Below, piece after piece: positions 39,895-53,159 of a stretch of DNA of 64,000 nt. The notes under the pieces were generated by a model. That model worked only from the letters and a program-made list of their open reading frames with translations. It did not search any database and was not told the DNA's origin. How positions within the stretch are numbered: the stretch's first letter is position 1; each line of letters starts with the position of its first letter. The stretch spans positions 25,841 through 89,840 of the forward strand of contig JAGWUP010000002.1 in assembly GCA_028868375.1 (NCBI GenBank), given 5' to 3'. Made by a program: the position numbers and the translations under genes. Source of the DNA: Elusimicrobiota bacterium. Its GTDB lineage: Bacteria > Elusimicrobiota > Elusimicrobia > UBA1565 > UBA9628.

Positions 39895-41628
39895 ATGAAA
39901 GCCCTCATCGCCGGCGGCTTGTCGGCGGCGCTGCTCTTGGCGGCGCCGGGACTGCCTCGCCCGGTTTGCGCCGGTTCCCTCGACGCCATCGCAAGCGACG
40001 AAAGCCTGCCGCGGGGCGTTCCCGAGGCGCTAATCCAGACGCCGCCGGTTCAAGCGACGCAGAGTGTTCTCGACCGCCCTGTCTCTCCCATGCCTGGCTT
40101 GGCTGCCGCCCCCGCACCCGCGGCTGCCGACGTCCAGCCTGCCACGCGGCCTGTCGCGGCCTCCCCTCGGAGTTTCGGCGTTCTCCAGGGGCTGGCTTCG
40201 CGCGTCTTTTTGGGAAGGAGCGGCGGGAACGTTCAGTCGCGGGGACTAGGGTCATGGCGCCGATTGTTCGACGGGGGATGGGCAGGACCCGGCGCTGCCC
40301 CAGCCGTCAACTCGGCGTCGATGGAGATGCGCGGCAAACGCATCGTCATCGTGGGGGCCGGAACGCCGGCCAAGCGGCCGTTCCTGGAAAAGGCCCGGCA
40401 GCTCGGCGTCCGGGTCATACTGGTCGACAAGGGCTTATCCGGTTTGCCGCGGCTCTTTGATTGGGCGCGGGTTCATCTGCTGGGCCTGCCCTCGCGCGAC
40501 CATTGGGCGCGCGGCCTCGTTTCCGAGCTCGTCGACGTCGATCTCAGCGCCGGCTCGCCGGAAGCCGACGAGCGCGCTGCCGCGGCCCTGCGGCGCTCGG
40601 CCCGAAAGCGCGGGCCCTTGGACGGCCTCACCGCGTATTGGGAAGACGATCTCATCGACGCGGCCAGGATCGCCCAGGCATTGGGGCTGAGGTATCATTC
40701 CGTCGAGGCGGTCGAGACGGCGCGCAGCAAGCACCGGACCATCGAGCGCTTGAGCGCCGCGGGCGTGCTCCCGCGGCGAGTGAGCTTCAAGATCGAGTCG
40801 AGGCGGGATCTGGAGGGCTTGATTGGCGGGGGGCGGGTCCCGCAGCGCTGGTTTCTCAAGCCGGACGGCGGCGCCGAGGCCCAATTCGACGCCAGCTATA
40901 AGGACGGTCGGGATTTGCTGGCGGCCTATGACGCGCTGGCCGCGCGGCTGGCGGCATCCGACGACACCGTATTCAAGAGCAACCGCACCTTCACGCTGAC
41001 CAACGCCTTGGAGGGTCCGGAGTGGGATTACAACGTCGTTCTCCAGGGCGGGCGCTTCATCGACGGCCGCTTCACCGACAACTGGCCGACGCGGCCGGGC
41101 AGCCGCAAGGCCACCGGCTACTCGCTGCCTTCCCGCGTCCTGACCGAGCCGCTGAAGGGGTCGATCCACCAAATGGTGGTCGACAGCCTCGAAGCCATCG
41201 GCGCGCGCGACGGGGTGTTCCACGTCGAGGGCATCGGCGAGGATTTAGTCGAGATCAACATGCGCCCCGGCGGCAGCTACACCCTGCAGGCCAACGAGGC
41301 CGTCTACGGCGTCAACGAGGCGGAGCTGCTGCTGCGCTTGGCCGCCGGCTTGCCGGTTTCGGTGCCGCGGCTTGAACGCCCGCTGGCCTACCAGGAGGGG
41401 GCTTTCGTCTTCGCCTCGGAGCGCGGGACCATCAAGATGATCGCGTTGACCGCGGCCGCTCGCGCGGCCGGCTTGCATCTGCGAGTCGAGATGACGCCGG
41501 GAAGCGTCATCACCGATCAGAAAAACCGCGTGGCGCTGGTCTACGCCCAGGCCTCCTCGGCCGTTGAGGCCCTGGCCTTGTTGGGCGACGACGCGCGTTC
41601 CCTGCTGGATCTTACGATCATCCCCTAG
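39895..41628 (+). CDS. ATP-grasp-domain protein with signal-like, low-complexity N-terminus (577 aa)
   Basis: KRIVIVGAG..VILVD pre-ATP-grasp region, ARSKHRT, WFLKPDGG and VEINMRPGG motifs. N-terminal MKALIAGGLSAALLLAAPGL plus a Pro/Ala-rich ~140 aa. Confidence 0.7.
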   Translation: MKALIAGGLSAALLLAAPGLPRPVCAGSLDAIASDESLPRGVPEALIQTPPVQATQSVLDRPVSPMPGLAAAPAPAAADVQPATRPVAASPRSFGVLQGLASRVFLGRSGGNVQSRGLGSWRRLFDGGWAGPGAAPAVNSASMEMRGKRIVIVGAGTPAKRPFLEKARQLGVRVILVDKGLSGLPRLFDWARVHLLGLPSRDHWARGLVSELVDVDLSAGSPEADERAAAALRRSARKRGPLDGLTAYWEDDLIDAARIAQALGLRYHSVEAVETARSKHRTIERLSAAGVLPRRVSFKIESRRDLEGLIGGGRVPQRWFLKPDGGAEAQFDASYKDGRDLLAAYDALAARLAASDDTVFKSNRTFTLTNALEGPEWDYNVVLQGGRFIDGRFTDNWPTRPGSRKATGYSLPSRVLTEPLKGSIHQMVVDSLEAIGARDGVFHVEGIGEDLVEINMRPGGSYTLQANEAVYGVNEAELLLRLAAGLPVSVPRLERPLAYQEGAFVFASERGTIKMIALTAAARAAGLHLRVEMTPGSVITDQKNRVALVYAQASSAVEALALLGDDARSLLDLTIIP

Positions 41629-41653: not shown

Positions 41654-41664
41654 TAGGTCTTTTG
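41654..41664 (+). repeat. intergenic motif TAGGNCCWWWG instance
   Basis: TAGGTCTTTTG. Confidence 0.5.
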
Positions 41665-41676
41665 CCGGAGTATTTT

Positions 41677-41699
41677 TAGGCCCTTCGTTCCTCTTGCGC
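41677..41699 (+). repeat. intergenic motif instance plus CCTCTTGCGC module
   Basis: TAGGCCCTTCG, then CCTCTTGCGC at 41690-41699. Confidence 0.5.
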
Positions 41700-41747
41700 C
41701 GACGCGTCGAGTTATAGCATGCGGCCATGAGAGCGGCGCGGCATGGC

Positions 41748-41776
41748 GGAGGGCGGGTTTCGCCCTCCCTTTTTTT
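41748..41776 (+). terminator. intrinsic terminator
   Basis: GGAGGGCG-GGTTT-CGCCCTCC hairpin (8 bp), followed by C and T7. Lies 120 nt after the ATP-grasp stop. Confidence 0.8.
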
Positions 41777-41805
41777 CGCCTCGCGCCCCTTTCCCGCCGG
41801 AATCG

Positions 41806-41860
41806 CAAAAGATAATAAAATAAGACAATTTACATCTAAATATAATACCTATAGTACTAT
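41806..41860. other. extremely AT-rich tract in a GC-rich genome
   Basis: CAAAAGATAATAAAATAAGACAATTTACATCTAAATATAATACCTATAGTACTAT. Contains GATAAT (41811) and TATAAT (41841). Confidence 0.7.
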
Positions 41861-41973
41861 GGGTCCTAGGCCGGCTTGGGCCCATTGCCGCCTCTCGCGG
41901 GACCAAAGGGACCAGCAAGGCCAGCGCGGGACATTCGCTAGAATCCAGCCGACGCTTGGACAACGAGGCCACC

Positions 41974-44310
41974 ATGAACCGAACATCGAGACTTTGCGCC
42001 GCCGCGATCCTGCTGCTTTCCGCCTCCTTGGCCGCGGCCCAAGGCGCGGCCTTCCGGCCGGCCCCCCTTGCGCCGGCCGTTGAGCGGGCAGGCTTCGAGC
42101 GGATAAACCTTCCGCCGCTTCCGTCCGCCGATAGTTCGCTAGGCTCCACCCGCCTGCCGCCGGGCTTGCCGCAACTGGCGCCTCTGGGACCCAGCGCCAT
42201 CGTCAATGAAGGCTTGCCGCAGCGGCTGCCGGCGCTAAGCGCGGCCGGACAGGGCGCAGCGCGCGCGGGCGCCACGCTCGAGGCGTTGGGCGCCTCGCTG
42301 TCGCTGCCGCGGCCGCAGGCAGCGGCGCCGCAAGCGGAGGCGGATCCCGCCATCCGGGCGATGGACTCCGCTTTCGACGGTGAAGGGACCGGCGGGCAGG
42401 TTCCCGCGGCGGGGGGTTTCGACGGCGGCGGGCTGTCGCGCGGCGATGGCGGCGGCTTTGGCGGCGGAGGGCGCGACCGGGGCGGCTCGGACGGGCCGGG
42501 GGGCTACCACGACGATGGAGACATCGGCGGCATGCACCCCAGGGTCATCGTCATTTTGGACACTCTCAACGAACCCGCCTCCGACGTTCTCGTGGCGCGC
42601 CTGGAGAAGCTTCTTGACAAGGGCGCGCGGGTGCTGTTCGTGACGGCCCGGCCCGACAAGGGCGAGAACTCGGCGGACTCGGTGCTGGTCTCCAAGCTCC
42701 GCGTCCGCCAGAATAATCCAATCGTCGTCGTCAGCTACAACGGGGCGCGCGTCACCGCCCGCAGCTCCCATGCCGACCATCCCCGGCCCTTGCTCAAGGA
42801 CAGCGAAGGCTTTTCGCCGCAGGTGCTCGCCCTATTTCGCAAGACCAATGAGGACTTGAAGAAACGGTTCAAGCTCGATGAGGTGAGGGAGTTCGGCCTG
42901 CCGGAGGTGGAGAGAGCGCAGATCTACGGCATCGAGCTTCCGCAGGATGCCAATTTGGGGCGGGTCGTTTCCTCTTATAATGCGCGGCTTCGAAAGTCTG
43001 AATATCACTATTACCGATTCGAGGGCCAGGAGGTCGGCGGCCGCAAATTCCTGTTCACGCAGGCGACGGCCCTGAGGCTTAACGCCGGGCGAGTCGCGCA
43101 GGGCCTTTTCTCCCAGAATCCTGACTTGCAAGACAGCCTCAAGCGCGAGCAGGTGCTGGTCCTGGGCGACACGGCCAGGGGACGCCGCTTCCTGGACGCC
43201 CTGGCCGAGCAGGAGATCCCGGGCAAGGCCTACTTCGTCCACAACGTCGAGAACGGCGCGCAGCTTGAGGATGCCCTGGGCAAGATCCTCGACAAGGACG
43301 CGCAGCAGACGATCAAGGTGACGCGCCATCAATTGCGCGCCTACGTCGAGTGGCGGCAGCGGCAGGTCTTCGGCCCGCGCCCGGTCTCCGACGGGCGCCC
43401 CGGCGCCGGCAAGCGCGCGAAAGCCCCGGCGGGATTCGGCCGGACCATCCGCGACCTGGCCTTCTTTCGCGGCATCGTCCATTACAACGTGATGATGCGC
43501 ATGAAGAAATTGATGCACAACCATCAGTGGGAGGAGGCTTCGGTTCATGCGGCGGTGGACCTGGCGCGCCGGATGTGGCGCGAGCCCCTGCAGAACGGCC
43601 TGAGGCTGCGGCGCTCCTTGCTGGAGGCGCGCCGCGCGCCGGAATGGAAAGCGTTGGAGGACGGCTTCCTGGAGGCCGAGATCGCCGCGGTCGAGAACTA
43701 TTACGGCCGCAATTTCCCGGGCCAGTGGCCGACGGGCGCCGCGGAGCGCGCGAGAGGCTTGGCCAATATCGCCACGGACGGCAAGAACGGCATCAAGGCC
43801 GAATATCTCTCGCCGGTGGCGCGCTACCAGGTCAACATGCTGCCGGCCGAGGTCCATAGCTATCAGGGCGAGGGCCATTGGATTCTCGAGGCCCACGCCT
43901 ATCGCTCCGGCAAATCGATGCGCCAGGACGAGTTCGACGAATCCATCGAGAGGAATCTCCTGGCCCATGCCTTGCTTCTGGGCTACGCCAAGCAGCAGCC
44001 GGACGGCTCCTGGAAGGTCAATGACCAGCCGGTGCGCCTGCGCGTGATCTTCCATTACGGGACGCAGGATTACGGGACGACGGATCTGCTGACTCCCGGG
44101 CAGGTCGTAGACCAGGCGGCTCAGGTGACCACCCTGATCACCAACATGCTGGCCGATCGTGAGTTCCTGGCTTTCTGGGAGGAGGAACAACGCCTCAATC
44201 GGAGGCTGGACGCCGAGGCCGATCTCAAGGCCGAGAGGGCCAAGGCGCAAGCCCAGCGCCGCAGGCGGGAGCGCTCAAGAAGAAAGCTTCAACCCAAGAA
44301 AACGAAATAG
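41974..44310 (+). CDS. exported 778-aa protein: low-complexity linker + HAD-like module (degenerate motif I) + degenerate PD-(D/E)xK-like module
   Basis: GAGG site 5 nt before the ATG. Signal MNRTSRLCAAAILLLSASLAAAQG. VIVILDTLNE, FVTARP and VLVLGDT motifs. C-terminal region is paralogous to the next gene but lacks its D/D/K residues. Confidence 0.7.
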   Translation: MNRTSRLCAAAILLLSASLAAAQGAAFRPAPLAPAVERAGFERINLPPLPSADSSLGSTRLPPGLPQLAPLGPSAIVNEGLPQRLPALSAAGQGAARAGATLEALGASLSLPRPQAAAPQAEADPAIRAMDSAFDGEGTGGQVPAAGGFDGGGLSRGDGGGFGGGGRDRGGSDGPGGYHDDGDIGGMHPRVIVILDTLNEPASDVLVARLEKLLDKGARVLFVTARPDKGENSADSVLVSKLRVRQNNPIVVVSYNGARVTARSSHADHPRPLLKDSEGFSPQVLALFRKTNEDLKKRFKLDEVREFGLPEVERAQIYGIELPQDANLGRVVSSYNARLRKSEYHYYRFEGQEVGGRKFLFTQATALRLNAGRVAQGLFSQNPDLQDSLKREQVLVLGDTARGRRFLDALAEQEIPGKAYFVHNVENGAQLEDALGKILDKDAQQTIKVTRHQLRAYVEWRQRQVFGPRPVSDGRPGAGKRAKAPAGFGRTIRDLAFFRGIVHYNVMMRMKKLMHNHQWEEASVHAAVDLARRMWREPLQNGLRLRRSLLEARRAPEWKALEDGFLEAEIAAVENYYGRNFPGQWPTGAAERARGLANIATDGKNGIKAEYLSPVARYQVNMLPAEVHSYQGEGHWILEAHAYRSGKSMRQDEFDESIERNLLAHALLLGYAKQQPDGSWKVNDQPVRLRVIFHYGTQDYGTTDLLTPGQVVDQAAQVTTLITNMLADREFLAFWEEEQRLNRRLDAEADLKAERAKAQAQRRRRERSRRKLQPKKTK

Positions 44311-44311
44311 G

Positions 44312-47300
44312 ATGAGCATGAGATCCTGCCTCTTGCTGTTGGCGGCTGTCCTGTCCGGTCCGGCTTGGTCCGCTCCCCTGGTCCGTCCGGAGGTTCCCGC
44401 TGCCGTGGAGGCCGGGACGGCGGTCTTGCCTCGCTTGGCTCCGCTTACCGCCATTCTTGCGCCATCGGCATTGACTGAGGCGGCGCTGACCGGCGGACGG
44501 GCATGGCCGGGGATGGCGGGCTTTGGGCCGGCCGCGGCCATATCTCACGCGGCCAAGCCTTCCGCCGCCCTGCCGGCCTTGCGGATGATGACTTATCCGG
44601 CCGACGCGGGAGAGAGCCTCGGGGAAAGCCCCGAAGCGCGCCCCTTGGCCGCCTCCGGCTTCGACGGCTCCATCTCCCACGGCGGCCTGGAGGCCGGCGG
44701 TTTCCCGGTCAATTTGGGCTTCGAGCCGCCCCATGCCCGCCCGCCGCGAGGCGGCGGCGGCGGGGGGGACGATTCTGGTGCGCCCCGAAACGATGGGGGC
44801 GAGGACGGCCAGCGCTTGTCTTTGGGCTTCTCCACTCCCGCCCAGGTGCGGATGCTCAAGTCCTTCGACAAGAGCGAGGCCTTGTCCGGGGTGGTCAAGT
44901 ACGTCAAGCCCACCGCGCCGGGCTGGAAACCGAGGCCCGCGGAGGTCCAGCCGGACGGCACCGTCAAGCGTTGGCTGACCAGCCGGCAATGGTGGGAGCA
45001 GTACCGGCCCGGCGTCGAGATCGACATCCGCTCCAAGACCGAGAACGTCTTCGGCGAGCCGACGGTGGTGACCAGCAACGTCATCAAGAAGATCCGCGAG
45101 GTCCAGAAAAAGGATCTGGCCGGCATCATACCGGCCAAGGAGCTGAAAGCCCCGATCAGGGAGATTCGCAAGGCCCTCGCTCGAGAATTGGAGGCTCATC
45201 GCAGGTCCTGGGAAAAGAACCCGCGCCGCGCCGCCTCCAGCCAGTACGCGGTGACGCTGGACTCGGAGGTCTGCCTGATCCGCTTCAAGTCCTTCGCCGA
45301 GCTTTACCGCGAGAAGCACGGCGACGTCGCCATGCCCCCGCCGGCGCAGGCGCGCGCTCGTCTGCCGCTCAAGATACGCGCCGAGGGCGCTCTCAGTCCC
45401 CTGGGCCGCTTCCTGCCCAAGGCGATCTTTTTCGACGTCGACGCGCTGGACGGACCGCTTGACGAGGACCAGCTCACCGACATGACCGAGTTGCAGCACT
45501 CCGGCGTGCAGTTCGTGGCCTTCTCGCGCAAGCCCTACGACGCTCCGGGCGGCTTGAAGGAGCGCCTGATCGATCGCATGTCGGTCTATCAATTGAACAT
45601 CCAACTGCCGCAGCATTTCATGGCCGTCACCGACGGGGGCGCGGTGATCTCGGATTTCCCGGAAGGGGGAACGAGGCGCGCCCTGGAGGTGGTTGGCTTT
45701 ACTTCAAACCAGCTCGAGATATTAAGCGACGCCGCCCGCAGGGCCGCCGAGGCGACGGGAATACCAGGGAGGGACCTTCACCCCGTCGCGGCCGGCCTGG
45801 ATGAGGAGCCGGGAAGTCAATCGCTGGCGGTCTCCTTTCAGCTCGATGCCGCCGGCGTCTCCGAGGAGCAAGCGCGGGATTGGTTGTCCCGTTTTAAGCA
45901 GCGCTTGACCGAGCAAGGCTTGCAGGTTCAAATCGAGCTGGGCCGGCAGGCCGACGGCTGGCGCCTGAGCGCTCGCCGCCGCGGCCTGAGCGAGGCGGCG
46001 CGCCGCGCGGTCCAATTGTTGGGCGAGCGCGCGGATTCATTCGTTCCGCCCTCGGCCGTGCTCGATCTCACCGACGATTTGCATGCCAACCCCAACCTCG
46101 ACTTCGCCGCGGCCAGCGGTCTTAAAGGAAGCGAGCGCTTCGAGAACGCCCTGGGCTTGCTGCTGCGCCAGTCGCGATTGAGGCCGCCCTACCGCCTCTC
46201 CGGCTCCGCCACGCGCGTGTCCAGCTTCCGCAGGGACCGCACCCGCTACTGGACCCAGTGGTTGATCCAGGAAGACCAGCTGGAGCAGAACGTCAATTTC
46301 TTCTCCGGGCACATCGTGCACGGCTCCCTGGACTGGGCGATCGCCCGATTGCAGGAGGGCCGGCGGCCCAGCGAGGAGGAGTTTTCGAACTATTTCCGCC
46401 GTATCTGGAAGCAGCGCATGGAGGAGAAGCCGGTGGCGCTCAAGCCCGGCGACGACATGCTGGGCTGGCAGGAGTCGCGCCTGGATGTGGCGCTGGGCAT
46501 GTACCGGGAGGCGCTGGCCGCCCACGACCGCGGCGAGCTCTTCGTCGGCACCGAGATACCGAACTTCATGATCCTGAAGGAGTATGAGCGGCGCACGCAA
46601 AAGTTGAAGGGGGAATACCTGTTCCGGACGATCTTCGACTGGGTGGCCCTGCGCCCCGATCCGGACCACCCCGGCCATGCCAGGCTGGTCGTCTACGACT
46701 TTAAGAGCGGCCCCATGCAGACGGCGCAGAATCTGGCCAAGGACGTCCAGGCATTGACCTACGCCCTGTTCGTCCGCGACCACTGGGTGGGCAGGCCCTT
46801 CCCCTACCCGTATTTCTCCGGCGACCGGGAGTTCTTCATCGACGGCGTCGACGTCGAGTTCGTCTACGGCCCGCAGCGCCAGCCGGCCCTGCTGACCGAT
46901 TGGTCCATCGATCTGGTCCGCGGCATCCTGGTCCGCACCCTCAAGCGCATGGACCATGAGGAAAAGCAGCTCCTGGGCTTGCTGCCGCGAAAAAAGCCCA
47001 AGAATAAGGCCGCCGCCCAGCCCACTGCCGCCGGCCAGGCGCCCGCCGCGCGCAAGCCGCGCCGCCGCGCGCCGCTCTCGCCGGAGCAGCGCCTTGAGCG
47101 CCGGGTGCAAGCCGCCATCGCCAGGGCCCAGGCCCTGGAGCTTCCCGCCGCGCCGGTCTTGCGGCTGAACGGCGCCGAAACCGCGCAGGAGGCCGTGGCC
47201 AAGCTCTCCGACGGCAACGCCGCCGCCACGAGCCTGCTGGAGTTCCTAGCCCGGAAGGATACGAACAACCTGCGCCTGCTCGACTCCGTCCGGCTCTACG

Positions 47301-47422
47301 GCGCGGACCTCGTCTCCGCTTTCGAGCTCTGCCGCGGCAACATCCAGAAGCTGCTCAAGCGCCTGCACGAGGACGCTACGCTTCTGGCCTCCGACGCCCT
47401 CAGGCGTGCGCGAACCAAGTAG
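44312..47422 (+). CDS. exported 1036-aa protein: low-complexity linker + HAD-like module + intact RecB/Cas4-like PD-(D/E)xK module
   Basis: Signal MSMRSCLLLLAAVLSGPAWSAP. FFDVDALDG (45428-45454). GHIVHG (46307-46324), IFDW (Asp 46637), VVYDFKSG (Asp 46697, Lys 46703), QALTY (46748-46762). Confidence 0.7.
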   Translation: MSMRSCLLLLAAVLSGPAWSAPLVRPEVPAAVEAGTAVLPRLAPLTAILAPSALTEAALTGGRAWPGMAGFGPAAAISHAAKPSAALPALRMMTYPADAGESLGESPEARPLAASGFDGSISHGGLEAGGFPVNLGFEPPHARPPRGGGGGGDDSGAPRNDGGEDGQRLSLGFSTPAQVRMLKSFDKSEALSGVVKYVKPTAPGWKPRPAEVQPDGTVKRWLTSRQWWEQYRPGVEIDIRSKTENVFGEPTVVTSNVIKKIREVQKKDLAGIIPAKELKAPIREIRKALARELEAHRRSWEKNPRRAASSQYAVTLDSEVCLIRFKSFAELYREKHGDVAMPPPAQARARLPLKIRAEGALSPLGRFLPKAIFFDVDALDGPLDEDQLTDMTELQHSGVQFVAFSRKPYDAPGGLKERLIDRMSVYQLNIQLPQHFMAVTDGGAVISDFPEGGTRRALEVVGFTSNQLEILSDAARRAAEATGIPGRDLHPVAAGLDEEPGSQSLAVSFQLDAAGVSEEQARDWLSRFKQRLTEQGLQVQIELGRQADGWRLSARRRGLSEAARRAVQLLGERADSFVPPSAVLDLTDDLHANPNLDFAAASGLKGSERFENALGLLLRQSRLRPPYRLSGSATRVSSFRRDRTRYWTQWLIQEDQLEQNVNFFSGHIVHGSLDWAIARLQEGRRPSEEEFSNYFRRIWKQRMEEKPVALKPGDDMLGWQESRLDVALGMYREALAAHDRGELFVGTEIPNFMILKEYERRTQKLKGEYLFRTIFDWVALRPDPDHPGHARLVVYDFKSGPMQTAQNLAKDVQALTYALFVRDHWVGRPFPYPYFSGDREFFIDGVDVEFVYGPQRQPALLTDWSIDLVRGILVRTLKRMDHEEKQLLGLLPRKKPKNKAAAQPTAAGQAPAARKPRRRAPLSPEQRLERRVQAAIARAQALELPAAPVLRLNGAETAQEAVAKLSDGNAAATSLLEFLARKDTNNLRLLDSVRLYGADLVSAFELCRGNIQKLLKRLHEDATLLASDALRRARTK

Positions 47423-47434
47423 GGCGGTCCTTAC

Positions 47435-47445
47435 TAGGTCCAAAG
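47435..47445 (+). repeat. intergenic motif TAGGNCCWWWG instance
   Basis: TAGGTCCAAAG, identical to 53558-53568. Confidence 0.55.
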
Positions 47446-47494
47446 CCTAGCACCCGCGACCCCAAGGGCCTAAGGCAACGGCTTCGGCATTCCA

Positions 47495-47500
47495 TAGAAT
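47495..47500 (+). promoter_or_regulatory. -10 TAGAAT 8 nt before the MFS-like gene ATG
   Basis: TAGAAT at 47495-47500, ATG at 47509. Confidence 0.4.
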
Positions 47501-47508
47501 TGCGCAAC

Positions 47509-49848
47509 ATGAAACCCTCCCCTTTGCGCACTCTCGCATCCACTCTGCTGGCAGCCGCGCTGATCCTGGTCTCGCCCGGCCTGGGCTGCTACCGCGCCGC
47601 GGCCGCCGCGTTGGAGCCCGGCGAGTCCGGAGCGCAGCGGCCACTGCCGATTCATGCGCTTGGCGGAGGCTTGGCATTATCTCAAGCCGCCGCGTTCGCG
47701 GCGATTTCCGGGCCCTCTTCTCTTGGCGGCGCGCTCCAGCTTCCGGGGCTTGCGGCCGGCGCCCTGCTTGGGCCGTCAGCTTTGCCTCGCGCGGCCTCTG
47801 AAGCCGCGCCGATTGCTACGGCGCTCGGCGCCGGGGAGGTCGCGCCCGAAGAGCGAGCTTCTGCGCAAGCGGCCCAAGCCCGTCCGGAAGCTGGGCCGGC
47901 GGCGTTGCAACGGGCGCCGGCAGCCGCGGTCGGAAAGATCGAGAAGGGCGTTGAGGCCGTCCAGGGGCAGGCTGCCGATCCGACGGCCTCCGGCGAGGCG
48001 GTGGCCGGCCAGGGCGAGACTCTCCAAGAAATTTTGCAGGGAGAAGAGGGCGCTTCGGCTTCAGGCGCCGTTAAGGCGCCGCCTGCCGGAGCCTCCGGCA
48101 TCACCGAGGCCGACGCTCTGACGGCGGCGGGCGCAAGCGCGCAGCCTCTCCCGCCGCCCAGAGTCGGGCGGTTCAATGCCGCCGGCGGCCTTATAGACCC
48201 GAAAGATCAGGAGCGCGGGATATGGGGCATGGCCGGCAACAGATTGTTTTCGATGATCGCCCAGCAGATCGGAACGATCGCCGTGTCCGTGATGATCATC
48301 GGGGCGATCGGCCCCGGCAACTTTTTGACTCAGGCCGCGATCGGCGCCGGGGCCAACATCGCCATGGCGCTGCTGGCCGGCAAGGTCGCCGCGAACGTGA
48401 CGCTGAAGAACTATGTTTTAGGCAACATCGCCCTGCGCTCCGCGATCTACGTGGCCAACGGGGTGTTCTGGAAGCTTGGTTGGGTGACCTATGGCCCGCT
48501 GTTGGCATTGACGATACTGAGTTCCTGGCAGTTTCAGTCGATGTTCGTCCTCGACCCCTCCCTTCAAACCGCCATCGTAGGCACCGATAAGGGCAAGCTG
48601 CGCTCGACCGAGGCCCTGATCCGGATGACGACGATCTTGGTGACCGTCGTCGCGGGGCTGGTCGTTGGCCCCGCGATGGTCAAGGACCTCGGATATTTCT
48701 GGACGTTCATTCTGATGGCAGCGATCCAGGCCTTGTCGATTCCTGTCATGAACCGCGCCTTGCCCGACGGCATCGGCGAGACCGGGCCCAGGCCCGGCCT
48801 GGGCAGGGTGTTCAGCGAGTCGGCGGCCTCGTTGGCGGGCTGGCTCTCGCGCCTGAATTGGCGTCAAGCCCCGCTGGCCGCGGCCTTCGCCCTTTCGCTG
48901 GCGACTTTCCTGATTCCGCTGCCCTGGGCGCCGTTTCTGTACTTCTGCCCGGTTCCTCTGATGCTGGTGAGCGGTTTCGCGTTGCTGCGCTCGCGAGGCT
49001 TCCGGGAACTGATCGTTCCCCATCCCATGCTGCGCGCCAGCCTGGCTTTCATCGTGCTCGGCGCCATTATCGAGCTGCCGCTGCGCAATTCCGTGTTCGG
49101 CGTGCTGGCCAAGGATGTCTTCTCCAATAAGGACGCGGCGGCGGCCTATCTGGGCAGCCTGATGGCCGCGTTCTATCTGGGCCAGTTGCCGTCCGGCACC
49201 GGAATCCTCGATCCCAAGCTGAAGGTGTCCTTGGGCCGTTTCAGCGTCTCCTTGCGCGAGATGATGAAATGGGTCGGCGCCGCCAGCGTGGCGGCTTGGA
49301 CGACGTTCGTGCTGATCCCGAAGCCGGCTTTGGCGATGCTCGTTTCCTGGCTCCAGCCCTGGGCCGGGATCGATCTGCTGGTGGCCGCGACCGTGGGGCT
49401 CTATCTGGTGCTGCATCACCTGACGCCGAGGCTCTCGGACTCGACCTGGATGAAGGTGGAGGCCGGAGCCTTGCTATTGATCGGATTGCCGCTGTTTTTC
49501 TGGGGGAGTCCGTGGGCGCTGTATCTGAGCGTGGCCGTCCTGGGTTTCGCGTTAAACGGCTCGCAGCGGATGATCAGCGCCACGTTCTGGTCCGCCTCCA
49601 AGCAGGTCTTGCAAGGCGATCAGTTCGAATACGTCAACGGCATCCGCCAGGCCTTCTTTAATATAGCCATGTCTTTGGGCGTGGCCCTCTACGCCGTGGC
49701 GCAGGCCGTGCCGGCGCTGTTCTCCGGCAATCCCCATGCCCATGCCTTCCCGTTCACGTGGTACGTGCTCGCCGGGCTCTTCGCTCTCTGCGCCGCGCTG
49801 TTCGTGCGGGGCAGCAAGCTTTTCGCCGTCGAGAAGGACAAGAAATAA
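47509..49848 (+). CDS. MFS-like (EntS/MFS_3-like) 12-TM membrane protein with ~240-aa low-complexity N-terminal extension
   Basis: Signal-like MKPSPLRTLASTLLAAALILVSPG, Ala/Gly/Pro-rich region, then about 12 hydrophobic helices starting at NRLFSMIAQQIGTIAV. Confidence 0.7.
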   Translation: MKPSPLRTLASTLLAAALILVSPGLGCYRAAAAALEPGESGAQRPLPIHALGGGLALSQAAAFAAISGPSSLGGALQLPGLAAGALLGPSALPRAASEAAPIATALGAGEVAPEERASAQAAQARPEAGPAALQRAPAAAVGKIEKGVEAVQGQAADPTASGEAVAGQGETLQEILQGEEGASASGAVKAPPAGASGITEADALTAAGASAQPLPPPRVGRFNAAGGLIDPKDQERGIWGMAGNRLFSMIAQQIGTIAVSVMIIGAIGPGNFLTQAAIGAGANIAMALLAGKVAANVTLKNYVLGNIALRSAIYVANGVFWKLGWVTYGPLLALTILSSWQFQSMFVLDPSLQTAIVGTDKGKLRSTEALIRMTTILVTVVAGLVVGPAMVKDLGYFWTFILMAAIQALSIPVMNRALPDGIGETGPRPGLGRVFSESAASLAGWLSRLNWRQAPLAAAFALSLATFLIPLPWAPFLYFCPVPLMLVSGFALLRSRGFRELIVPHPMLRASLAFIVLGAIIELPLRNSVFGVLAKDVFSNKDAAAAYLGSLMAAFYLGQLPSGTGILDPKLKVSLGRFSVSLREMMKWVGAASVAAWTTFVLIPKPALAMLVSWLQPWAGIDLLVAATVGLYLVLHHLTPRLSDSTWMKVEAGALLLIGLPLFFWGSPWALYLSVAVLGFALNGSQRMISATFWSASKQVLQGDQFEYVNGIRQAFFNIAMSLGVALYAVAQAVPALFSGNPHAHAFPFTWYVLAGLFALCAALFVRGSKLFAVEKDKK

Positions 49849-49886
49849 TACAGGCAGATTGCCCATCATGAAATCATTGATCCTTT

Positions 49887-49907
49887 CGCAGCCGTCCGAC
49901 TGGACGG
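49887..49907 (+). repeat. 21-nt perfect direct repeat, copy 1
   Basis: CGCAGCCGTCCGACTGGACGG, identical to 51656-51676. Confidence 0.95.
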
Positions 49908-49954
49908 ATGCCCGGCTTGGCTCGATCCTCGTACCAAAAATCAGGAAAACGGCG

Positions 49955-51571
49955 ATGAGACGCGCGAACTTGCCGATCCAAAGTCTCTTGCTTGCGCTGC
50001 TGCTGGCGATTCCCGCCGGTCGGTCGCGGGCGGCCAACGAAGGCGAATTGCCCGATGTCCCGCGACTGCCGCCGGCAGCCGCCCCCCAGGTGGGGTTCGA
50101 GGGATCGGCGCTCGTCGGCCAGCCGAGCGATGTCGCGCGGGCTCTCGCCGCGCCGCTGAAAGCGGCGCTGGACGTCAAGGCCGCTCCGGCCGCCTCCGCC
50201 CAGTCGGGAGAAGAGCTGCAGCGGGCGTTGCAGCGTCCATTGGCCCCGGTCGATGGACGCTTGCCCTACGCGTCGGTGCGCGCCGGCTTGGGCCTGGTCT
50301 CCTTGCTGAGCGGCGCCGTCTACAGCCAGCCGCCGGCCGGGCCGCGGCTGCTCCATCGGCTGATCGAAGGGCTGCCCTCCGTGCAGACCGTCGTCTCGGA
50401 TTACGACGACACGCTGGCTTTCACCCATGCCCCGCTATCCGAAGAGGCAGTCGATGCGATCCTCGGCGTGCTGCGCGCCGGCAAGTCCTTCGTCATCGCC
50501 AGCAATCGCCAAGCAAGGGTCGAGCCGGGAGACAAGCTGCCGGCGGTGCTGGAAAGCCTCAAGCCGTTGCGCGAACGTTTGTCAGAGTTGACGGACGAGC
50601 AGGTCCGGCGCTTGGTCGTCGTCACCGACGGGGGAGGGGAGATTGATCGCTTCGACCGGAGCGGCGAGCCTCGATCGGTCTACGAGGAGCTTGCGTTCAC
50701 GCCGCAACAGAAAGAGGCGATTGAACGAGCGGGAGGAGTCGTCGTATCCCGATTAAAACGGCTTGGCGCTGAATTGAATGCCCCTCCTAGATTGGCGGAC
50801 TACAACTATAGTTTGGTCTTTAAGGTGGGAACTCCACCGGATGTCGTCCAGAAGGCGGCCGCCATGGAGCAACGGCTGCTGGAGCAGCAGGGCCTGCGCT
50901 TCGAGGTGGAGGCGAGGATGGCCAAGGACCCGAGAAACCCTCCCTATACGACGTTGCGCAAGAACAACAAGGGGCTAGCGGTGCAAATGGCTCTCGGAAT
51001 GCTGGCTGCTGAGGGAGCGGTCGCTCGCGGCAGAAGGGTGCTGGTGCTGGGCGACAGTTTCTACAAGCCTAGAGCGGCGGCGCGGTTGCGCTGGGCTTTT
51101 CCCATCCTGGACCGTTGGGCTCGGCGCTTGAGCGGCCAGCCGCTGCCGCCGATCGGCAACGAGAGCGACAGGAAGATGGCGCTGGGGGTTCCTCGGGCCA
51201 GAGTCGTCAGCGTCGCGCTGACCGCCGATCCCAGGAGCAATGCCCTCGTGGCCGGCCTTTCCGGAGTTGAAAATGCTGATTTGCAAAGAGTGCCGCAGAG
51301 CGGGGATTGGGCCCGGTTCGCCGAGACGGTGAAAGTGTCGCGGTACGGTCCCGCGACCGCGCTGCGCCTGCTGCGGGCCGTCGGCTCCGAATCGGCGCGA
51401 AAGACGGGCGGTTTTTGGGGCCGGCTGGCGCGGGTCCTTTTGACGTTGGCGCTGCTGTTGGGGGCCGCCGTCGTCCTGGCTTTGTTGCTGGGCGCGGCGT
51501 CCCATTGGTTCGGCTTGGGCGGGGCGGGGGCGTCGCTGCCGCCGTTTAATCAGTGGCCGTTCTGGTTGTAA
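49955..51571 (+). CDS. HAD-superfamily phosphatase-like protein with signal peptide and C-terminal TM anchor
   Basis: MRRANLPIQSLLLALLLAIPAG signal. Canonical DxDxT in VVSDYDDTLAF (50399-50413). FVIASNRQ and VLVLGDS motifs. C-terminal LLTLALLLGAAVVLALLLGAA helix. An alternative start at 49868 is possible. Confidence 0.7.
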   Translation: MRRANLPIQSLLLALLLAIPAGRSRAANEGELPDVPRLPPAAAPQVGFEGSALVGQPSDVARALAAPLKAALDVKAAPAASAQSGEELQRALQRPLAPVDGRLPYASVRAGLGLVSLLSGAVYSQPPAGPRLLHRLIEGLPSVQTVVSDYDDTLAFTHAPLSEEAVDAILGVLRAGKSFVIASNRQARVEPGDKLPAVLESLKPLRERLSELTDEQVRRLVVVTDGGGEIDRFDRSGEPRSVYEELAFTPQQKEAIERAGGVVVSRLKRLGAELNAPPRLADYNYSLVFKVGTPPDVVQKAAAMEQRLLEQQGLRFEVEARMAKDPRNPPYTTLRKNNKGLAVQMALGMLAAEGAVARGRRVLVLGDSFYKPRAAARLRWAFPILDRWARRLSGQPLPPIGNESDRKMALGVPRARVVSVALTADPRSNALVAGLSGVENADLQRVPQSGDWARFAETVKVSRYGPATALRLLRAVGSESARKTGGFWGRLARVLLTLALLLGAAVVLALLLGAASHWFGLGGAGASLPPFNQWPFWL

Positions 51572-51603: not shown

Positions 51604-52305
51604 ATGAAAAGGTTGATCGCATTGGCGCTGATGGGAGCGTGCGCGGCGGCTTCCGCGCAGCCGTCCGACTGGACGGGGGGGACGGGGCGTGAGCTGGCGA
51701 AGCTCGGCGATGGCACGGGGCGGCAGATCGCCGAGCATCAATTGCGCCAGAAGGCGCTCGAGGTTGCGCTGGAGGGAATGGGCGACAGCGCCGGGGTCGG
51801 CGATCAGATCGCTACTTATCTTAAAGAGCACGACGTGGCGGTCGGCTTCGCCGAGCAATCGGAGCTGTCGAAGACCTCCAACGGCACGATCACGCTGAGC
51901 TGGAAGCTTCCCGCCTCGCCGCAGGCCATCGGCCTGCGCGTGGCCTGGGAGGCGTCGGCGATGATGCTTTCGGACATGCCGGTGTGCGCCGAGAGGGCGT
52001 ACATGCGCCGCAGCCTGACCGCGCGGGCGTTTGCCGAGATCGGCGGCGATCTGCAATCGCTGCTCGATCCCCAGTCCGCCTCCGGAGTCCGCGACGAGGA
52101 GCTGGCCGGGCAGCTGAAGATGTGGTTCGGGGCTCCTTACTCCAGCCCGTTGGATCCGTTCGCCACGCGTTTCAAATCCTTGCTGGTCCTAAGAGAAGAG
52201 GCGCGAGGAAACCAGGCGCTGATCAAGGCTTGCCAGCGGGCCGAGGCTCGCTTCCTGCAGTTCCGCAAGGACGAGCTCATCTGGCTGGCGACCTACCCGC
52301 GCTGA
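51604..52305 (+). CDS. hypothetical secreted protein (233 aa)
   Basis: GGGAGGAAG Shine-Dalgarno site. Signal MKRLIALALMGACAAASA. No family recognised. Confidence 0.6.
   Translation: MKRLIALALMGACAAASAQPSDWTGGTGRELAKLGDGTGRQIAEHQLRQKALEVALEGMGDSAGVGDQIATYLKEHDVAVGFAEQSELSKTSNGTITLSWKLPASPQAIGLRVAWEASAMMLSDMPVCAERAYMRRSLTARAFAEIGGDLQSLLDPQSASGVRDEELAGQLKMWFGAPYSSPLDPFATRFKSLLVLREEARGNQALIKACQRAEARFLQFRKDELIWLATYPR
51656..51676 (+). repeat. 21-nt perfect direct repeat, copy 2
   Basis: CGCAGCCGTCCGACTGGACGG. Encodes AQPSDWT at the signal-peptide cleavage region of the 233-aa protein. Confidence 0.95.
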
Positions 52306-53153: not shown

Positions 53154-53159
53154 CATGGC

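What the first reader, a model, noticed from the sequence alone, without database searches (positions are those of the whole stretch)
44312..47422. Signal-peptide-bearing 1036-aa protein with a complete RecB/Cas4-type PD-(D/E)xK motif set
The C-terminal third contains, in the canonical order:
- the helix motif GHIVHG (46307-46324)
- a strand Asp in TIFDWVAL (46637)
- the D-x-K strand in RLVVYDFKSG (Asp 46697, Lys 46703), resembling the DYKTG signature
- QALTY (Gln 46748, Tyr 46760), resembling QLxxY

This pattern is characteristic of RecB/AddB/Cas4-family nucleases, which are cytoplasmic DNA-processing enzymes. Here it sits behind a Sec-like signal, a Gly/Asp-rich linker (PPRGGGGGGDDSG), an unassigned ~250-aa domain and a HAD-like module. 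A Lys/Arg-rich tail and a helical C-terminus follow it. I have not seen an exported multi-domain protein of this composition described.
Basis: partly seen in the sequence, partly recalled or inferred. Interest (0 to 1): 0.7.

Follow-up and report, generated by a model that had tools for sequence, protein, structure and literature searches.

The report
Signal-bearing RecB-type nuclease–HAD fusion protein
This gene encodes a rare multi-domain protein that joins a normally intracellular type of DNA-cutting enzyme and a phosphatase-like module to an export-type leader, and it always sits next to a catalytically dead copy of itself in a conserved envelope gene cluster of unknown function.

Summary
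ORF 44312-47422 encodes 1036 aa, and every quoted motif sits at the stated coordinates. Pfam PDDEXK_1 matches aa 632-857 (E 7e-10, above the curated cut-off). A confident AlphaFold model (pLDDT 91) matches phage RecB/Cas4-family exonucleases, AddB and Cas4, and its middle domain matches HAD-IIB phosphatases. His667, His670, Asp776, Asp796, Lys798, Gln813 and Tyr817 are conserved in about 35 relatives down to about 22% identity.

The family is very rare: 46 hits among 1.84 billion representatives. The only named relative is an Elusimicrobia MAG.

New findings:
- The upstream, abutting gene is a distant paralogue (hhalign 98%) that has lost all nuclease residues and the HAD nucleophile.
- The pair is adjacent in 8 of 8 loci and is usually followed by an MFS permease, a canonical HAD protein and a small protein. 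An M28 peptidase or ATP-grasp gene lies upstream.
- All these proteins share a signal-like N-terminus, an Ala/Pro spacer and often an F(D/T)G motif. All are almost cysteine-free.

Export of this soluble member is plausible, since many soluble members show AxA|Q cleavage-type sites. It is not shown. HAD–MFS and MFS–ATP-grasp fusions in relatives argue that the leader's end is cytoplasmic there.

Best guess: an envelope-located, metal-dependent DNase paired with a pseudo-enzyme partner.

The parts
44312..44371 (+). Signal-peptide-like N-terminus (aa 1-20, MSMRSCLLLLAAVLSGPAWS|AP).
   Evidence: It has a positive n-region, a hydrophobic core, and Gly-Pro followed by A-W-S. A heuristic test scores it SP-like, as it does 22 of 25 full-length family members. 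No dedicated predictor was available.
44372..44812 (+). Low-complexity Ala/Pro/Gly-rich spacer (aa 21-167). It contains the conserved FDG motif (aa 117-119, 44660-44668), FEPP, and the Gly/Asp run RGGGGGGDDSG.
   Evidence: FDG and FEPP are invariant in the orthologues. An F(D/T)G motif occurs at a similar distance in most partner, M28 and MFS proteins of related loci, in one HAD4 protein, and in the window's ATP-grasp protein. GC3 of 0.78 supports translation.
44813..45346 (+). Unassigned alpha/beta domain (aa 168-345).
   Evidence: It is confidently modelled, with most 10-residue blocks at pLDDT 82-98. It is conserved from profile position ~51 in distant relatives. There is no Pfam, NCBIfam or PDB sequence match. 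Fold searches were dominated by the other domains. The partner paralogue lacks this domain.
45401..46171 (+). HAD-IIB (Cof-type) fold module (aa ~364-620). It carries D375-V-D377 at the end of strand 1, S405 at the end of strand 2, and D588/D589 after strand 4.
   Evidence: Foldseek against the PDB finds IMP-nucleotidase ISN1 (6rn1) at E 2.4e-8, plus PH1421 and trehalose-6-P phosphatases. Weak BLASTP similarity to the operon's canonical HAD protein, E 5e-4. Motif conservation is shown. No sequence-profile hit.
46190..46978 (+). RecB/AddB/Cas4-type PD-(D/E)xK nuclease domain (aa 627-889). Catalytic set: H667, H670, D776, D796, K798, Q813, Y817. No cysteines.
   Evidence: Pfam PDDEXK_1, E 7.4e-10. 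Foldseek finds phage RecB-family/PD-(D/E)XK exonucleases at E 1.8e-9 with TM 0.67, AddB 3u4q_B at E 3e-4 and Cas4 8d3l_I at E 0.028. Residue conservation is shown. There are 0 Cys in the domain.
46979..47086 (+). Lys/Arg/Ala/Pro-rich basic tail (aa 890-925).
   Evidence: A basic tail follows the nuclease domain in most family members that reach the C-terminus, and in the partner family. A polyanion or DNA-binding role is inferred.
47087..47422 (+). Helical C-terminal extension (aa 926-1036) plus the stop codon. It is specific to this genome.
   Evidence: It is absent from P0001, P0002 and the L003 orthologue. GC3 of 0.90 supports coding. Function unknown.
41974..44310 (+). Upstream partner gene: a distant paralogue (leader + HAD-like + PD-(D/E)xK-like + basic tail) that has lost the catalytic residues of both modules.
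   Evidence: hhalign of the two families gives probability 98.1%, E 1.3e-13, over 463 columns. H667/H670 become I/Y, D776 becomes A, D796 becomes A, K798 becomes R, and the first Asp of motif I is absent. The stop codon lies 1 nt before the target ATG. The two genes are adjacent in 8 of 8 related loci.
47509..49848 (+). MFS-type polytopic membrane protein with an N-terminal anchor-like helix and an Ala/Pro-rich extension.
   Evidence: Orthologues hit Pfam MFS_1 (E 8.7e-13 in L001) and TIGR00900. It is aligned with orthologues. The gene holds the same position in L001, L004, L005 and L010; L012 has an uncharacterised multi-TM protein there.
49955..51571 (+). Fourth operon gene: leader + HAD domain with canonical DYDDTL motif I + C-terminal TM helix.
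   Evidence: Sequence. Weak Hydrolase_3/HAD-IIB hits in this protein and its orthologues. BLASTP to the target's HAD module gives E 5e-4. In L005 the equivalent gene is a double HAD fused to an MFS-like domain.
51604..52305 (+). Fifth operon gene: a small protein (233 aa) with a signal peptide (ASA|Q).
   Evidence: A protein of similar size, also with a signal-like N-terminus, holds the same position in L001; homology was not tested. No family match.
39895..41628 (+). ATP-grasp-like protein carrying the same type of leader (signal-like N-terminus, Ala/Pro spacer, LFDG motif). It probably belongs to the same functional set.
   Evidence: ATPgrasp_N at E 1.9e-6 and PRK02186 at E 2.5e-11. Leader and motif are shown. 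An ATP-grasp gene also precedes the cluster in L010.
41748..41768 (+). Terminator-like hairpin that separates the ATP-grasp gene from the partner–nuclease operon.
   Evidence: GGAGGGCGGGTTTCGCCCTCC followed by a T run. Only weaker, short-stemmed consensus matches lie inside 41974-52305.

Best explanation
**What it is**

The gene encodes the catalytically competent subunit of a lineage-specific, two-paralogue nuclease module that works at the cell envelope. After Sec-type targeting through its N-terminal signal, the mature protein has these parts:
- a long flexible Ala/Pro spacer
- an unassigned domain
- a Cof-type HAD domain that still has its nucleophile Asp
- a RecB-type PD-(D/E)xK domain

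The PD-(D/E)xK domain would bind one or two divalent metal ions through His667/His670, Asp776 and Asp796. It would use Lys798 to activate water and cleave phosphodiester bonds of DNA. The Lys-rich tail would hold the DNA.

**How it probably works**
- It most likely acts as a heterodimer with the upstream paralogue. That paralogue keeps the fold but has lost every catalytic residue, so it would be a pseudo-enzyme scaffold or regulator.
- The co-transcribed membrane-anchored HAD phosphatase and MFS permease would then dephosphorylate and move the breakdown products. The whole would be a DNA or nucleotide scavenging or turnover pathway.

**Shown here**: fold, catalytic residues, their conservation, paralogy, loss of residues in the partner, gene order.

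**Inferred**: export, DNA as substrate, heterodimer formation, and the salvage role of the HAD and MFS proteins.
For: **Nuclease fold and motifs**
- Pfam PDDEXK_1 in the target and in 27 of 37 relatives.
- AlphaFold model with pLDDT 91 and pTM 0.87; motif residues sit on the canonical helix/strand/strand/helix elements.
- Foldseek hits to phage RecB-family exonucleases (E 1.8e-9), AddB and Cas4.
- Motif residues are conserved down to ~22% identity.

**HAD fold**
- Foldseek E 2.4e-8 to an IMP-nucleotidase and other HAD-IIB enzymes.
- D375, S405 and D589 are kept. DxD is present in this subfamily.

**Partner**
- hhalign 98%, with all catalytic positions substituted.
- The genes abut and are adjacent in 8 of 8 loci.

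**Operon**
- Five same-strand genes with short gaps follow a terminator.
- MFS and HAD genes recur in the cluster.
- M28 peptidases, normally extracytoplasmic, carry the same leader.

**Export cues**
- Signal-like N-termini in 22 of 25 full-length relatives.
- AxA|Q in 17 of 40 soluble members.
- No Fe-S cysteines.

**Basic tails** occur in most family members, which fits DNA binding.

**Chromosomal, vertically inherited locus**: the order operon – receiver – thioredoxin – PolA is shared with L012 at 46% PolA identity.
Against: - No predictor or experiment supports export.
- In L001 and L005 a canonical HAD domain with the same kind of leader is fused directly upstream of an MFS core. That core's motif A loop, TM4-5 loop, central loop and C-tail are Lys/Arg-rich, which indicates an N-terminus-inside topology.
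- The window's own fourth-gene HAD has Lys/Arg on the HAD side of its C-terminal TM helix.
- In L010 the same kind of leader precedes a 12-TM MFS followed by an ATP-grasp domain, which must be cytoplasmic.
- ATP-grasp, HAD and RecB-type enzymes are typically cytoplasmic.
- Cysteine avoidance extends to the TM domains and to the ATP-grasp fusion, so it does not mark a compartment.
- The second Asp of HAD motif I is lost in distant members, and no HAD profile matches. HAD activity is therefore uncertain.
- Nothing links the MFS to nucleosides; only generic or weak DHA3-like hits were found.
- The neighbouring 2'-dG riboswitch is not conserved with the operon.
Confidence: 0.4

Rival explanations
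1. The protein is a membrane-tethered cytoplasmic nuclease. On this reading the N-terminal hydrophobic helix is an anchor, not a cleaved export signal, and the Ala/Pro spacer is a long leash. The HAD and PD-(D/E)xK domains would then face the cytoplasm. They would act on DNA close to the membrane, for example incoming or damaged DNA. The HAD–MFS proteins would dephosphorylate the products and export them.
For: - HAD–MFS fusions (L001, L005) and the leader–MFS–ATP-grasp fusion (L010) place the end of the same type of leader on the Lys/Arg-rich side of canonical N-in MFS cores.
- The window's HAD4 C-terminal TM helix has its positive flank on the HAD side.
- All the catalytic families involved are normally cytoplasmic, and ATP-grasp enzymes need ATP.
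- The window's ATP-grasp protein carries the same leader.
Against: - A positive n-region, a short (9-15 aa) hydrophobic core and AxA|Q motifs in soluble members are the pattern of cleaved Sec signals oriented N-in/C-out.
- Membrane members carry a different N-terminal motif, (S/A/T)PGLxx[YW][EQR]A, in 6 of 11 cases against 0 of 40 soluble members. Their topology therefore need not transfer to soluble members.
- M28 peptidases with the same leader are normally extracytoplasmic.
- No orientation that puts the domains inside fits the charge distribution around the N-terminal helix.
Confidence: 0.3
2. The protein is a secreted DNase toxin or effector used against competitors, prey or a host. The dead paralogue would serve as its chaperone, carrier or inhibitor.
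For: - A signal-like leader is combined with a DNase and a basic tail.
- Pairing of an active enzyme with an inactive look-alike resembles toxin–antidote logic.
- From my own knowledge: PD-(D/E)xK toxin domains exist in polymorphic toxin systems (CdiA-CT, PoNe).
Against: - No secretion-system, toxin-delivery or immunity-type genes are present in any locus.
- The locus is chromosomal and syntenic across deep divergence, next to polA. It is not polymorphic or island-like.
- The partner carries the same leader, so it would not protect the cytoplasm.
- There are no PADLOC hits.
Confidence: 0.1
3. The PD-(D/E)xK domain does not act on DNA. It would cleave another phosphodiester polymer of the envelope, RNA or cyclic nucleotides, or it would serve only as a binding module. 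The operon would then serve envelope polymer turnover or a small-molecule pathway involving ATP-grasp ligase, M28 peptidase, HAD phosphatase and an MFS exporter.
For: - The accessory genes (ATP-grasp/L-amino-acid-ligase-like, M28 peptidase, HAD, DHA3-like MFS) resemble small-molecule or peptide pathways more than DNA metabolism.
- No DNA-specific domain other than the basic tail is present.
Against: - From my own knowledge: the members of PDDEXK_1 that have been characterised act on nucleic acids.
- The full catalytic set, including Q..Y, is under strong conservation.
- The closest folds are DNA exonucleases.
- Lys/Ala/Pro tails are typical of DNA binders.
Confidence: 0.1
4. The pair is an envelope-associated anti-phage defence that degrades injected DNA.
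For: It combines a nuclease with a membrane association and a pseudo-enzyme partner.
Against: - No PADLOC match for any of the five proteins.
- The neighbourhood is housekeeping (SMC, PolA, RecA, ClpB), not a defence island.
- The chromosomal position is stable across distant relatives.
Confidence: 0.05

Closest known systems
RecB-family / Cas4-like PD-(D/E)xK exonucleases (Pfam PF12705), including stand-alone phage RecB-family exonucleases
   Same: - Same fold and same ordered motif set: G-H-x-x-H helix, strand Asp, D-x-K strand, Q-x-x-x-Y helix.
- These are the best structural matches (E 1.8e-9, TM 0.67).
- The Pfam match is above the cut-off.
   Different: - Those enzymes are cytoplasmic or phage-encoded, are about 250-300 aa long, or are fused to helicases.
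- This one sits behind a signal-like leader, a 150-aa spacer, an unknown domain and a HAD domain, and is followed by a basic tail.
- No NCBIfam model for Cas4, AddB or RecB matches.
Cas4 and AddB nuclease domains
   Same: Structural matches to AddB (3u4q_B, E 3e-4) and Cas4 (8d3l_I, E 0.028).
   Different: - Cas4 and AddB carry a four-cysteine Fe-S cluster. This domain has no cysteine at all, in any family member bar two.
- There is no CRISPR-cas context and no helicase-like domain.
AddAB / AdnAB-type heterodimers of paralogous subunits (own knowledge)
   Same: Two adjacent, co-transcribed paralogues share a RecB-type nuclease fold, and one copy has lost a catalytic function.
   Different: - There are no helicase or ATPase modules.
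- Here the whole nuclease site and the HAD nucleophile are dead in one paralogue.
- Interaction between the two was not tested.
HAD-IIB (Cof-type) phosphatases, e.g. IMP-specific 5'-nucleotidase ISN1 and trehalose-6-phosphate phosphatase
   Same: - Rossmann-like core with an alpha/beta cap.
- The nucleophile Asp lies at the end of strand 1, Ser at the end of strand 2 and acidic residues after strand 4.
   Different: - No HAD sequence profile matches.
- Motif I is DVDAL rather than DxDx(T/V).
- The second Asp is replaced by Arg or Lys in distant relatives.
- The domain is fused to a nuclease.
Extracytoplasmic bacterial DNases used for DNA scavenging (Vibrio Xds/Dns, Shewanella ExeM/ExeS, endonuclease I, NucB; own knowledge)
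   Same: A proposed logic of signal-bearing nuclease plus phosphatases plus transporter to use DNA as a nutrient.
   Different: - Those enzymes have beta-beta-alpha-Me, EEP or SNase folds, not the RecB-type PD-(D/E)xK fold.
- None is fused to a HAD domain or paired with a dead paralogue.
PD-(D/E)xK toxin domains of polymorphic toxin systems (CdiA-CT, PoNe; own knowledge; PMC3482391 surveys such systems)
   Same: They are PD-(D/E)xK nucleases that leave the producing cell.
   Different: - Those are C-terminal cassettes delivered by CDI, T6SS or T7SS with cognate immunity genes.
- No such genes are present here, and the locus is conserved rather than polymorphic.

Membership tests
PD-(D/E)xK nuclease superfamily, RecB-like branch (Pfam PDDEXK_1, PF12705) | Significant match to the family profile above the curated threshold. 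| tested here: met
   E 7.4e-10, 39.6 bits against a cut-off of 22, aa 632-857. 27 of 37 relatives also match.
PD-(D/E)xK nuclease superfamily, RecB-like branch (Pfam PDDEXK_1, PF12705) | Core alpha-beta-beta-beta-alpha-beta fold, with Asp on strand 2, (D/E)xK on strand 3 and QxxxY on the following helix. | tested here: met
   In the model of pLDDT 91, D776 lies in strand E598-615, D796/K798 in E622-631, Q813/Y817 in H645-657 and GHxxH in H494-514 (model numbering = aa minus 167). Foldseek matches RecB-family exonucleases, AddB and Cas4.
PD-(D/E)xK nuclease superfamily, RecB-like branch (Pfam PDDEXK_1, PF12705) | Catalytic residues conserved among homologues. | tested here: met
   They are invariant in 4 orthologues. 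G666 and H670 are invariant, and D776, D796, K798, Q813 and Y817 are at least 90% conserved in 37 sequences. Per-sequence motifs are listed.
PD-(D/E)xK nuclease superfamily, RecB-like branch (Pfam PDDEXK_1, PF12705) | Divalent-metal-dependent nuclease activity. | not testable with these tools
   Needs a biochemical assay.
Cas4 | Four conserved cysteines that ligate an Fe-S cluster. | tested here: not met
   0 Cys in aa 625-889 of the target. The count is 0 in all but two family members.
Cas4 | CRISPR-cas neighbourhood and a match to Cas4 family models. | tested here: not met
   No NCBIfam hit. Neighbours are the paralogue, MFS and HAD genes.
AddB / RecB subunits of helicase-nucleases | Nuclease domain fused to SF1 helicase or helicase-like domains. 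| tested here: not met
   No helicase or ATPase domain by Pfam, NCBIfam or fold search.
HAD superfamily, subfamily IIB (Cof-type) | Rossmannoid core with a C2B alpha/beta cap. | tested here: met
   Foldseek E 2.4e-8 to 1e-4 against ISN1, PH1421, T6P phosphatases, YedP and phosphomannomutases. The same hits came from the independent low-confidence model.
HAD superfamily, subfamily IIB (Cof-type) | Motif I DxDx(T/V) with a nucleophile Asp, motif II S/T, and motif IV acidic residues. | tested here: inconclusive
   The target has D375-V-D377-A-L, S405 and D588-D589. D375 and the S/T are widely conserved. D377 is Arg or Lys in many distant members, and Thr/Val is replaced by Leu/Phe.
HAD superfamily, subfamily IIB (Cof-type) | Match to HAD sequence profiles. 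| tested here: not met
   No Pfam or NCBIfam HAD hit for the target or for any of the 37 relatives. The only sequence link is BLASTP E 5e-4 to the operon's canonical HAD protein.
Sec (SPase I) signal-peptide proteins | Positive n-region, 7-15-residue hydrophobic core, and small residues at -3 and -1 of a cleavage site. | tested here: met
   Tested by inspection and a home-made heuristic only: MSMR / CLLLLAAVL / SGPAWS|A. AxA|Q occurs in 17 of 40 soluble members of the locus families. No SignalP-type predictor was available.
Sec (SPase I) signal-peptide proteins | Actual translocation of the mature part across the cytoplasmic membrane. | not testable with these tools
   Indirect evidence conflicts. 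The topology of HAD–MFS and MFS–ATP-grasp fusions in relatives argues that the leader's end is cytoplasmic in those proteins.

The most novel reading that the evidence does not exclude
The locus may define a previously unrecognised envelope system of an Elusimicrobia-like lineage. In it, a set of enzymes that are cytoplasmic elsewhere share a dedicated N-terminal leader. The enzymes are a RecB-type nuclease with its dead paralogue, HAD phosphatases, an ATP-grasp ligase and an M28 peptidase. The leader consists of a hydrophobic helix, an Ala/Pro spacer and often an F(D/T)G motif.

The proteins are kept cysteine-free and work together with HAD-fused MFS permeases. This would be a new sorting or tethering module, and an extracytoplasmic or membrane-proximal DNA-processing machine built on a nuclease/pseudo-nuclease heterodimer.
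Probability: 0.25. Interest if true: 0.8.

Novelty: new variant of a known kind. Interest (0 to 1): 0.6.

Why it matters
RecB/Cas4-type PD-(D/E)xK nucleases are textbook intracellular DNA-repair and CRISPR enzymes. A conserved version with an export-type leader would extend where and how this fold is used. It is fused to a HAD module, paired with a fully inactivated paralogue, and embedded in an operon with MFS and HAD membrane proteins.

If the protein is exported, it would be a new class of extracytoplasmic DNase. It might be linked to the use of environmental DNA by uncultured groundwater or soil bacteria.

If it is tethered inside, it would point to a membrane-proximal DNA-processing system.

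The shared leader, the F(D/T)G motif and the near-total cysteine avoidance across unrelated enzymes in the locus are testable hints of a dedicated sorting or tethering mechanism.

Tried and rejected
- **First AlphaFold run.** A 3-sequence alignment gave pLDDT 52 and was unusable. I replaced it with a 37-sequence alignment.
- **PDB sequence searches.** Searches with the protein and with the family profile found nothing.
- **NCBIfam and PADLOC.** No hits for the target or its operon neighbours. I therefore gave the defence-system reading a low weight.
- **N-domain (aa 168-345).** I ran a fold search on the poor first model, hoping its better-folded N-terminal part would dominate. It again returned only HAD hits. 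My impression that this domain resembles an ASCH/PUA-like fold rests on memory and was not testable, so I dropped it.
- **2'-dG-II riboswitch.** It lies 1.3 kb downstream of the operon. If conserved with the operon, it would have supported a deoxynucleoside-salvage link. It is absent from the nine related loci I scanned, including the syntenic L012. I treat it as incidental.
- **Cysteine avoidance.** I first read it as a marker of export. I rejected that because it extends to TM domains and to an MFS–ATP-grasp fusion.
- **Lipoprotein status of the small fifth gene.** Considered and rejected: the lipobox is non-canonical and ASA|Q follows.
- **Metagenome and genome scans.** They added only one locus each. 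An attempt with the broad alignment failed for lack of conserved stretches.
- **Literature searches.** Searches for signal-bearing PDDEXK nucleases or Elusimicrobia nucleases found nothing relevant.

Full report
**1. The observation**

The ORF 44312-47422 (+) translates to 1036 aa. It starts one base after the TAG stop of the upstream gene. A second ATG lies two codons further on.
- GHIVHG = aa 666-671
- D776, D796, K798, Q813, Y817 at the stated bases

Third-position GC is 0.78 in the low-complexity leader, 0.87 in the core and 0.90 in the tail. The reading frame upstream of 44312 does not look coding in this frame. The whole ORF is therefore translated as read. The long antisense ORFs are the usual high-GC artefacts (window GC about 67%).

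**2. The nuclease module is real**

- Pfam PDDEXK_1 matches aa 632-857 at E 7.4e-10, 39.6 bits against a cut-off of 22.
- A word-indexed search of 5.8 billion proteins found only two homologues.
- An exhaustive HMMER scan of 1.84 billion representatives found 46, of which 34 were below 1e-30. The family is real but very rare.
- 27 of 37 members hit PDDEXK_1 on their own.
- In four orthologues H667, H670, D776, D796, K798, Q813 and Y817 are invariant.
- In a 37-sequence alignment reaching 21-28% identity, G666 and H670 are invariant. D776, D796, K798, Q813 and Y817 are at least 90% conserved.

A first AlphaFold run with three sequences failed (pLDDT 52). With 37 sequences the model reached pLDDT 91 and pTM 0.87. 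In that model:
- GHxxH lies in a helix.
- D776 lies in one strand and D796-x-K798 in the next.
- Q813/Y817 lie in the helix after that.

This is the canonical RecB-family arrangement.

Foldseek found phage PD-(D/E)XK and RecB-family exonucleases at E 1.8e-9 and TM 0.67. It also found AddB (3u4q_B, E 3e-4) and Cas4 (8d3l_I, E 0.028).

The domain has no cysteine. It therefore lacks the Fe-S cluster of Cas4 and AddB. No NCBIfam model for Cas4, AddB or RecB matches. It is a RecB-type PD-(D/E)xK domain, not a Cas4 or AddB orthologue.

**3. The HAD-like module**

No sequence profile detects it. The top PDB fold matches of the confident model are all HAD-IIB enzymes:
- IMP-nucleotidase ISN1, E 2.4e-8
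- PH1421
- trehalose-6-phosphate phosphatases
- YedP
- phosphomannomutases

The poor first model gave the same hits.

In the model D375 ends strand 1, S405 ends strand 2 and D588/D589 follow strand 4. These are the positions of HAD motifs I, II and IV.

D375 and the S/T are widely conserved. The second Asp (D377) is present in the target's subfamily but is Arg or Lys in many distant members. The usual Thr/Val is Leu or Phe. Phosphatase activity is possible in this protein but uncertain for the family.

The module is weakly similar (BLASTP E 5e-4) to the fourth operon protein. That protein has a canonical DYDDTL motif.

**4. A dead paralogue upstream**

BLASTP sees nothing between the target and the upstream 778-aa protein. 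Profile-profile comparison of the two four-member families gives probability 98.1% and E 1.3e-13 over 463 columns. It aligns target aa 364-868 with partner aa 190-719.

In the partner family:
- H667/H670 become I/Y.
- D776 becomes A, D796 becomes A and K798 becomes R.
- QxxxY is gone.
- The first Asp of HAD motif I is missing.

The partner keeps the leader and the basic tail but lacks the aa 168-345 domain. The two genes abut. They are adjacent in all eight related loci with enough flank: L001, L002, L003, L004, L005, L010, L011 and L012.

An active enzyme next to a fold-preserving pseudo-enzyme suggests a heteromeric complex. That is an inference.

**5. The operon**

After a terminator-like hairpin at 41748-41768, five same-strand genes follow with short gaps:
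- the partner
- the target
- an MFS-type membrane protein
- a HAD protein with a C-terminal TM helix
- a 233-aa signal-bearing protein

Orthologous clusters repeat this order even at about 27% identity of the nuclease. An M28 peptidase lies upstream in L001-L004 and L010. An ATP-grasp gene lies upstream in the window and in L010.

In L001 and L005 the MFS gene carries a canonical HAD domain before TM1. In L005 the fourth gene is a double HAD fused to an MFS-like domain.

The locus is chromosomal and old. The order operon – receiver domain – thioredoxin – PolA is shared with L012, whose PolA is only 46% identical. The only relative with an organism name is an uncultured Elusimicrobia MAG. Another relative comes from a sample labelled Hain-H43, which I take to be Hainich groundwater.

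**6. A shared leader**

The following all begin with a positive N-terminus and a hydrophobic helix, followed by 100-250 residues rich in Ala, Pro, Gly and Ser:
- almost every full-length nuclease homologue
- every partner, M28, MFS and HAD4 protein
- most small proteins
- the window's ATP-grasp protein

An hxxF(D/T)G motif about 115-195 residues from the start occurs in 20 of 27 of these proteins. Within the window, the leader-plus-FDG combination is confined to this locus.

A simple heuristic scores 22 of 25 full-length family members as signal-peptide-like.

- Soluble members often show AxA|Q directly after the hydrophobic core (17 of 40).
- Membrane members instead share (S/A/T)PGLxx[YW][EQR]A (6 of 11, against 0 of 40 soluble members).

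The proteins are almost free of cysteine. There are 2 Cys in about 6,500 residues of soluble operon domains, and 3 in the aligned cores (aa 168-889) of about 35 family members. Eleven other proteins of the window and L005 average 0.77%.

**7. Is it exported?**

For this soluble member the N-terminus (MSMR-CLLLLAAVL-SGPAWS|AP) has the anatomy of a cleaved Sec signal.

Three independent observations point the other way for the leader in membrane members:
- The MFS cores have TM1 and TM2 followed by a motif-A-like loop (GPLNGLIAD[KR]). Their TM4-5 loop, central loop and C-tail are Lys/Arg-rich. This indicates the canonical N-in topology, which puts the preceding HAD domain in the cytoplasm.
- The window's HAD4 C-terminal TM helix resembles that TM1 in its flanking pattern (my reading of the sequences, not a computed alignment). 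It has its positive flank on the HAD side.
- In L010 the leader is followed by a 12-TM MFS and an ATP-grasp domain, which must be cytoplasmic.

No extra TM segment that would reconcile these facts was found. Cysteine avoidance also covers TM domains and the ATP-grasp fusion. It therefore does not indicate a compartment.

I leave this as an unexplained conflict. I put export of the target's catalytic domains at roughly 0.6.

**8. Mechanism**

Best-supported: a metal-dependent DNase of RecB type. The metal would be held by His667/His670, Asp776 and Asp796, with Lys798 as the general base. The Lys-rich tail would hold the enzyme on its substrate. It would work with its dead paralogue at the cell envelope. 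The HAD phosphatases and the MFS permease would process and move the products. Overall confidence is 0.4.

Rivals:
- a cytoplasm-facing, membrane-tethered nuclease (0.3)
- a secreted toxin with the partner as chaperone or inhibitor (0.1)
- a non-DNA phosphodiesterase or a small-molecule pathway (0.1)
- anti-phage defence (0.05; no PADLOC hits)

**9. Comparison and novelty**

The domain is a member of the RecB-like PD-(D/E)xK superfamily. It fails the defining features of Cas4 (Fe-S cysteines, cas context) and of AddB/RecB (helicase modules). I found no description of this architecture, of a signal-bearing PDDEXK_1 nuclease, or of the operon. I rate it a new variant of a known kind, with a rare, lineage-restricted and internally consistent genomic context.

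**10. Seen in passing**

A 2'-dG-II riboswitch aptamer lies at 53646-53717 (73.5 bits, cut-off 60). This class had only 12 known members, all metagenomic, in 2017 (PMC5473149).

- Its P1 3' strand overlaps the 5' arm of a terminator hairpin at 53712-53741. This suggests an ON switch.
- The downstream gene is a CheY-like receiver. [quoted passage not shown]
- The riboswitch is absent from the nine related loci I scanned, including the syntenic L012. I do not use it as evidence for the operon's function.

Noticed in passing
window 53646-53741 (+), gene 53762-54148: A 2'-dG-II purine riboswitch aptamer (RF03165, 73.5 bits against a cut-off of 60) lies here. This class had only 12 known members, all metagenomic, in 2017 (PMC5473149). 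Its P1 3' strand overlaps the 5' arm of a strong terminator hairpin, so it is probably an ON switch. The downstream gene is a stand-alone CheY-like receiver, one of the gene types reported for this class (PMC8872408). The riboswitch was not found in related loci L001-L005, L007 or L010-L012.
   Followed up: partly
window 53109-53537 and 53762-54148 (+); 54179-54556 (+); L012:16333-19999: Two paralogous single-domain response-regulator receivers lie in tandem, followed by thioredoxin and PolA. The order operon – receiver – thioredoxin – PolA is shared with L012 (NCBI GCA_016206405.1), although PolA is only 46% identical. The locus is therefore old and vertically inherited.
   Followed up: partly
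window 39895-52305; L001, L004, L005, L010, L012: All proteins of the locus are almost cysteine-free. This includes TM domains and a 1748-aa MFS–ATP-grasp fusion with 0 Cys. The background in other proteins is 0.77% Cys. The cause is unknown; possibilities include oxidative or thiol-reactive conditions, or sulfur economy.
   Followed up: partly
window 39895-41628 (aa ~125), 41974-44310 (aa ~134), 44660-44668, 49955-51571 (aa ~48, as FEG); L001-L005, L010, L011: A short hxxF(D/T)G motif sits inside the disordered Ala/Pro spacer about 115-195 residues from the N-terminus. It recurs in unrelated enzymes of the locus: nuclease, partner, M28, MFS, HAD and ATP-grasp. It may be a processing, docking or sorting motif.
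   Followed up: partly
L001:7098-10310, L005:13328-17128, L005:17329-21741, L010:904-6150: These loci encode HAD–MFS and MFS–ATP-grasp fusion proteins. Each has an N-terminal anchor-like helix carrying a conserved (S/A/T)PGLxx[YW][EQR]A motif. Their predicted N-in MFS topology conflicts with a translocated leader. This is unresolved.
   Followed up: partly
window 47087-47419: A helical C-terminal extension of about 110 aa follows the basic tail. It is present only in this genome's copy. A few distant relatives (P0007, P0019, P0036) carry a different extra C-terminal domain after the tail.
   Followed up: no
L011:8513-9508 (-): A signal peptidase I (Peptidase_S26) gene lies next to the partner–nuclease cluster in one related locus.
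   Followed up: no
window 60590-63040 (+) and 9671-11812 (-): Two other large ORFs in the window have signal-like N-termini. The first also has an Ala/Pro/Gly/Ser-rich region, but no F(D/T)G motif turned up in its first 260 residues. They were not characterised.
   Followed up: no
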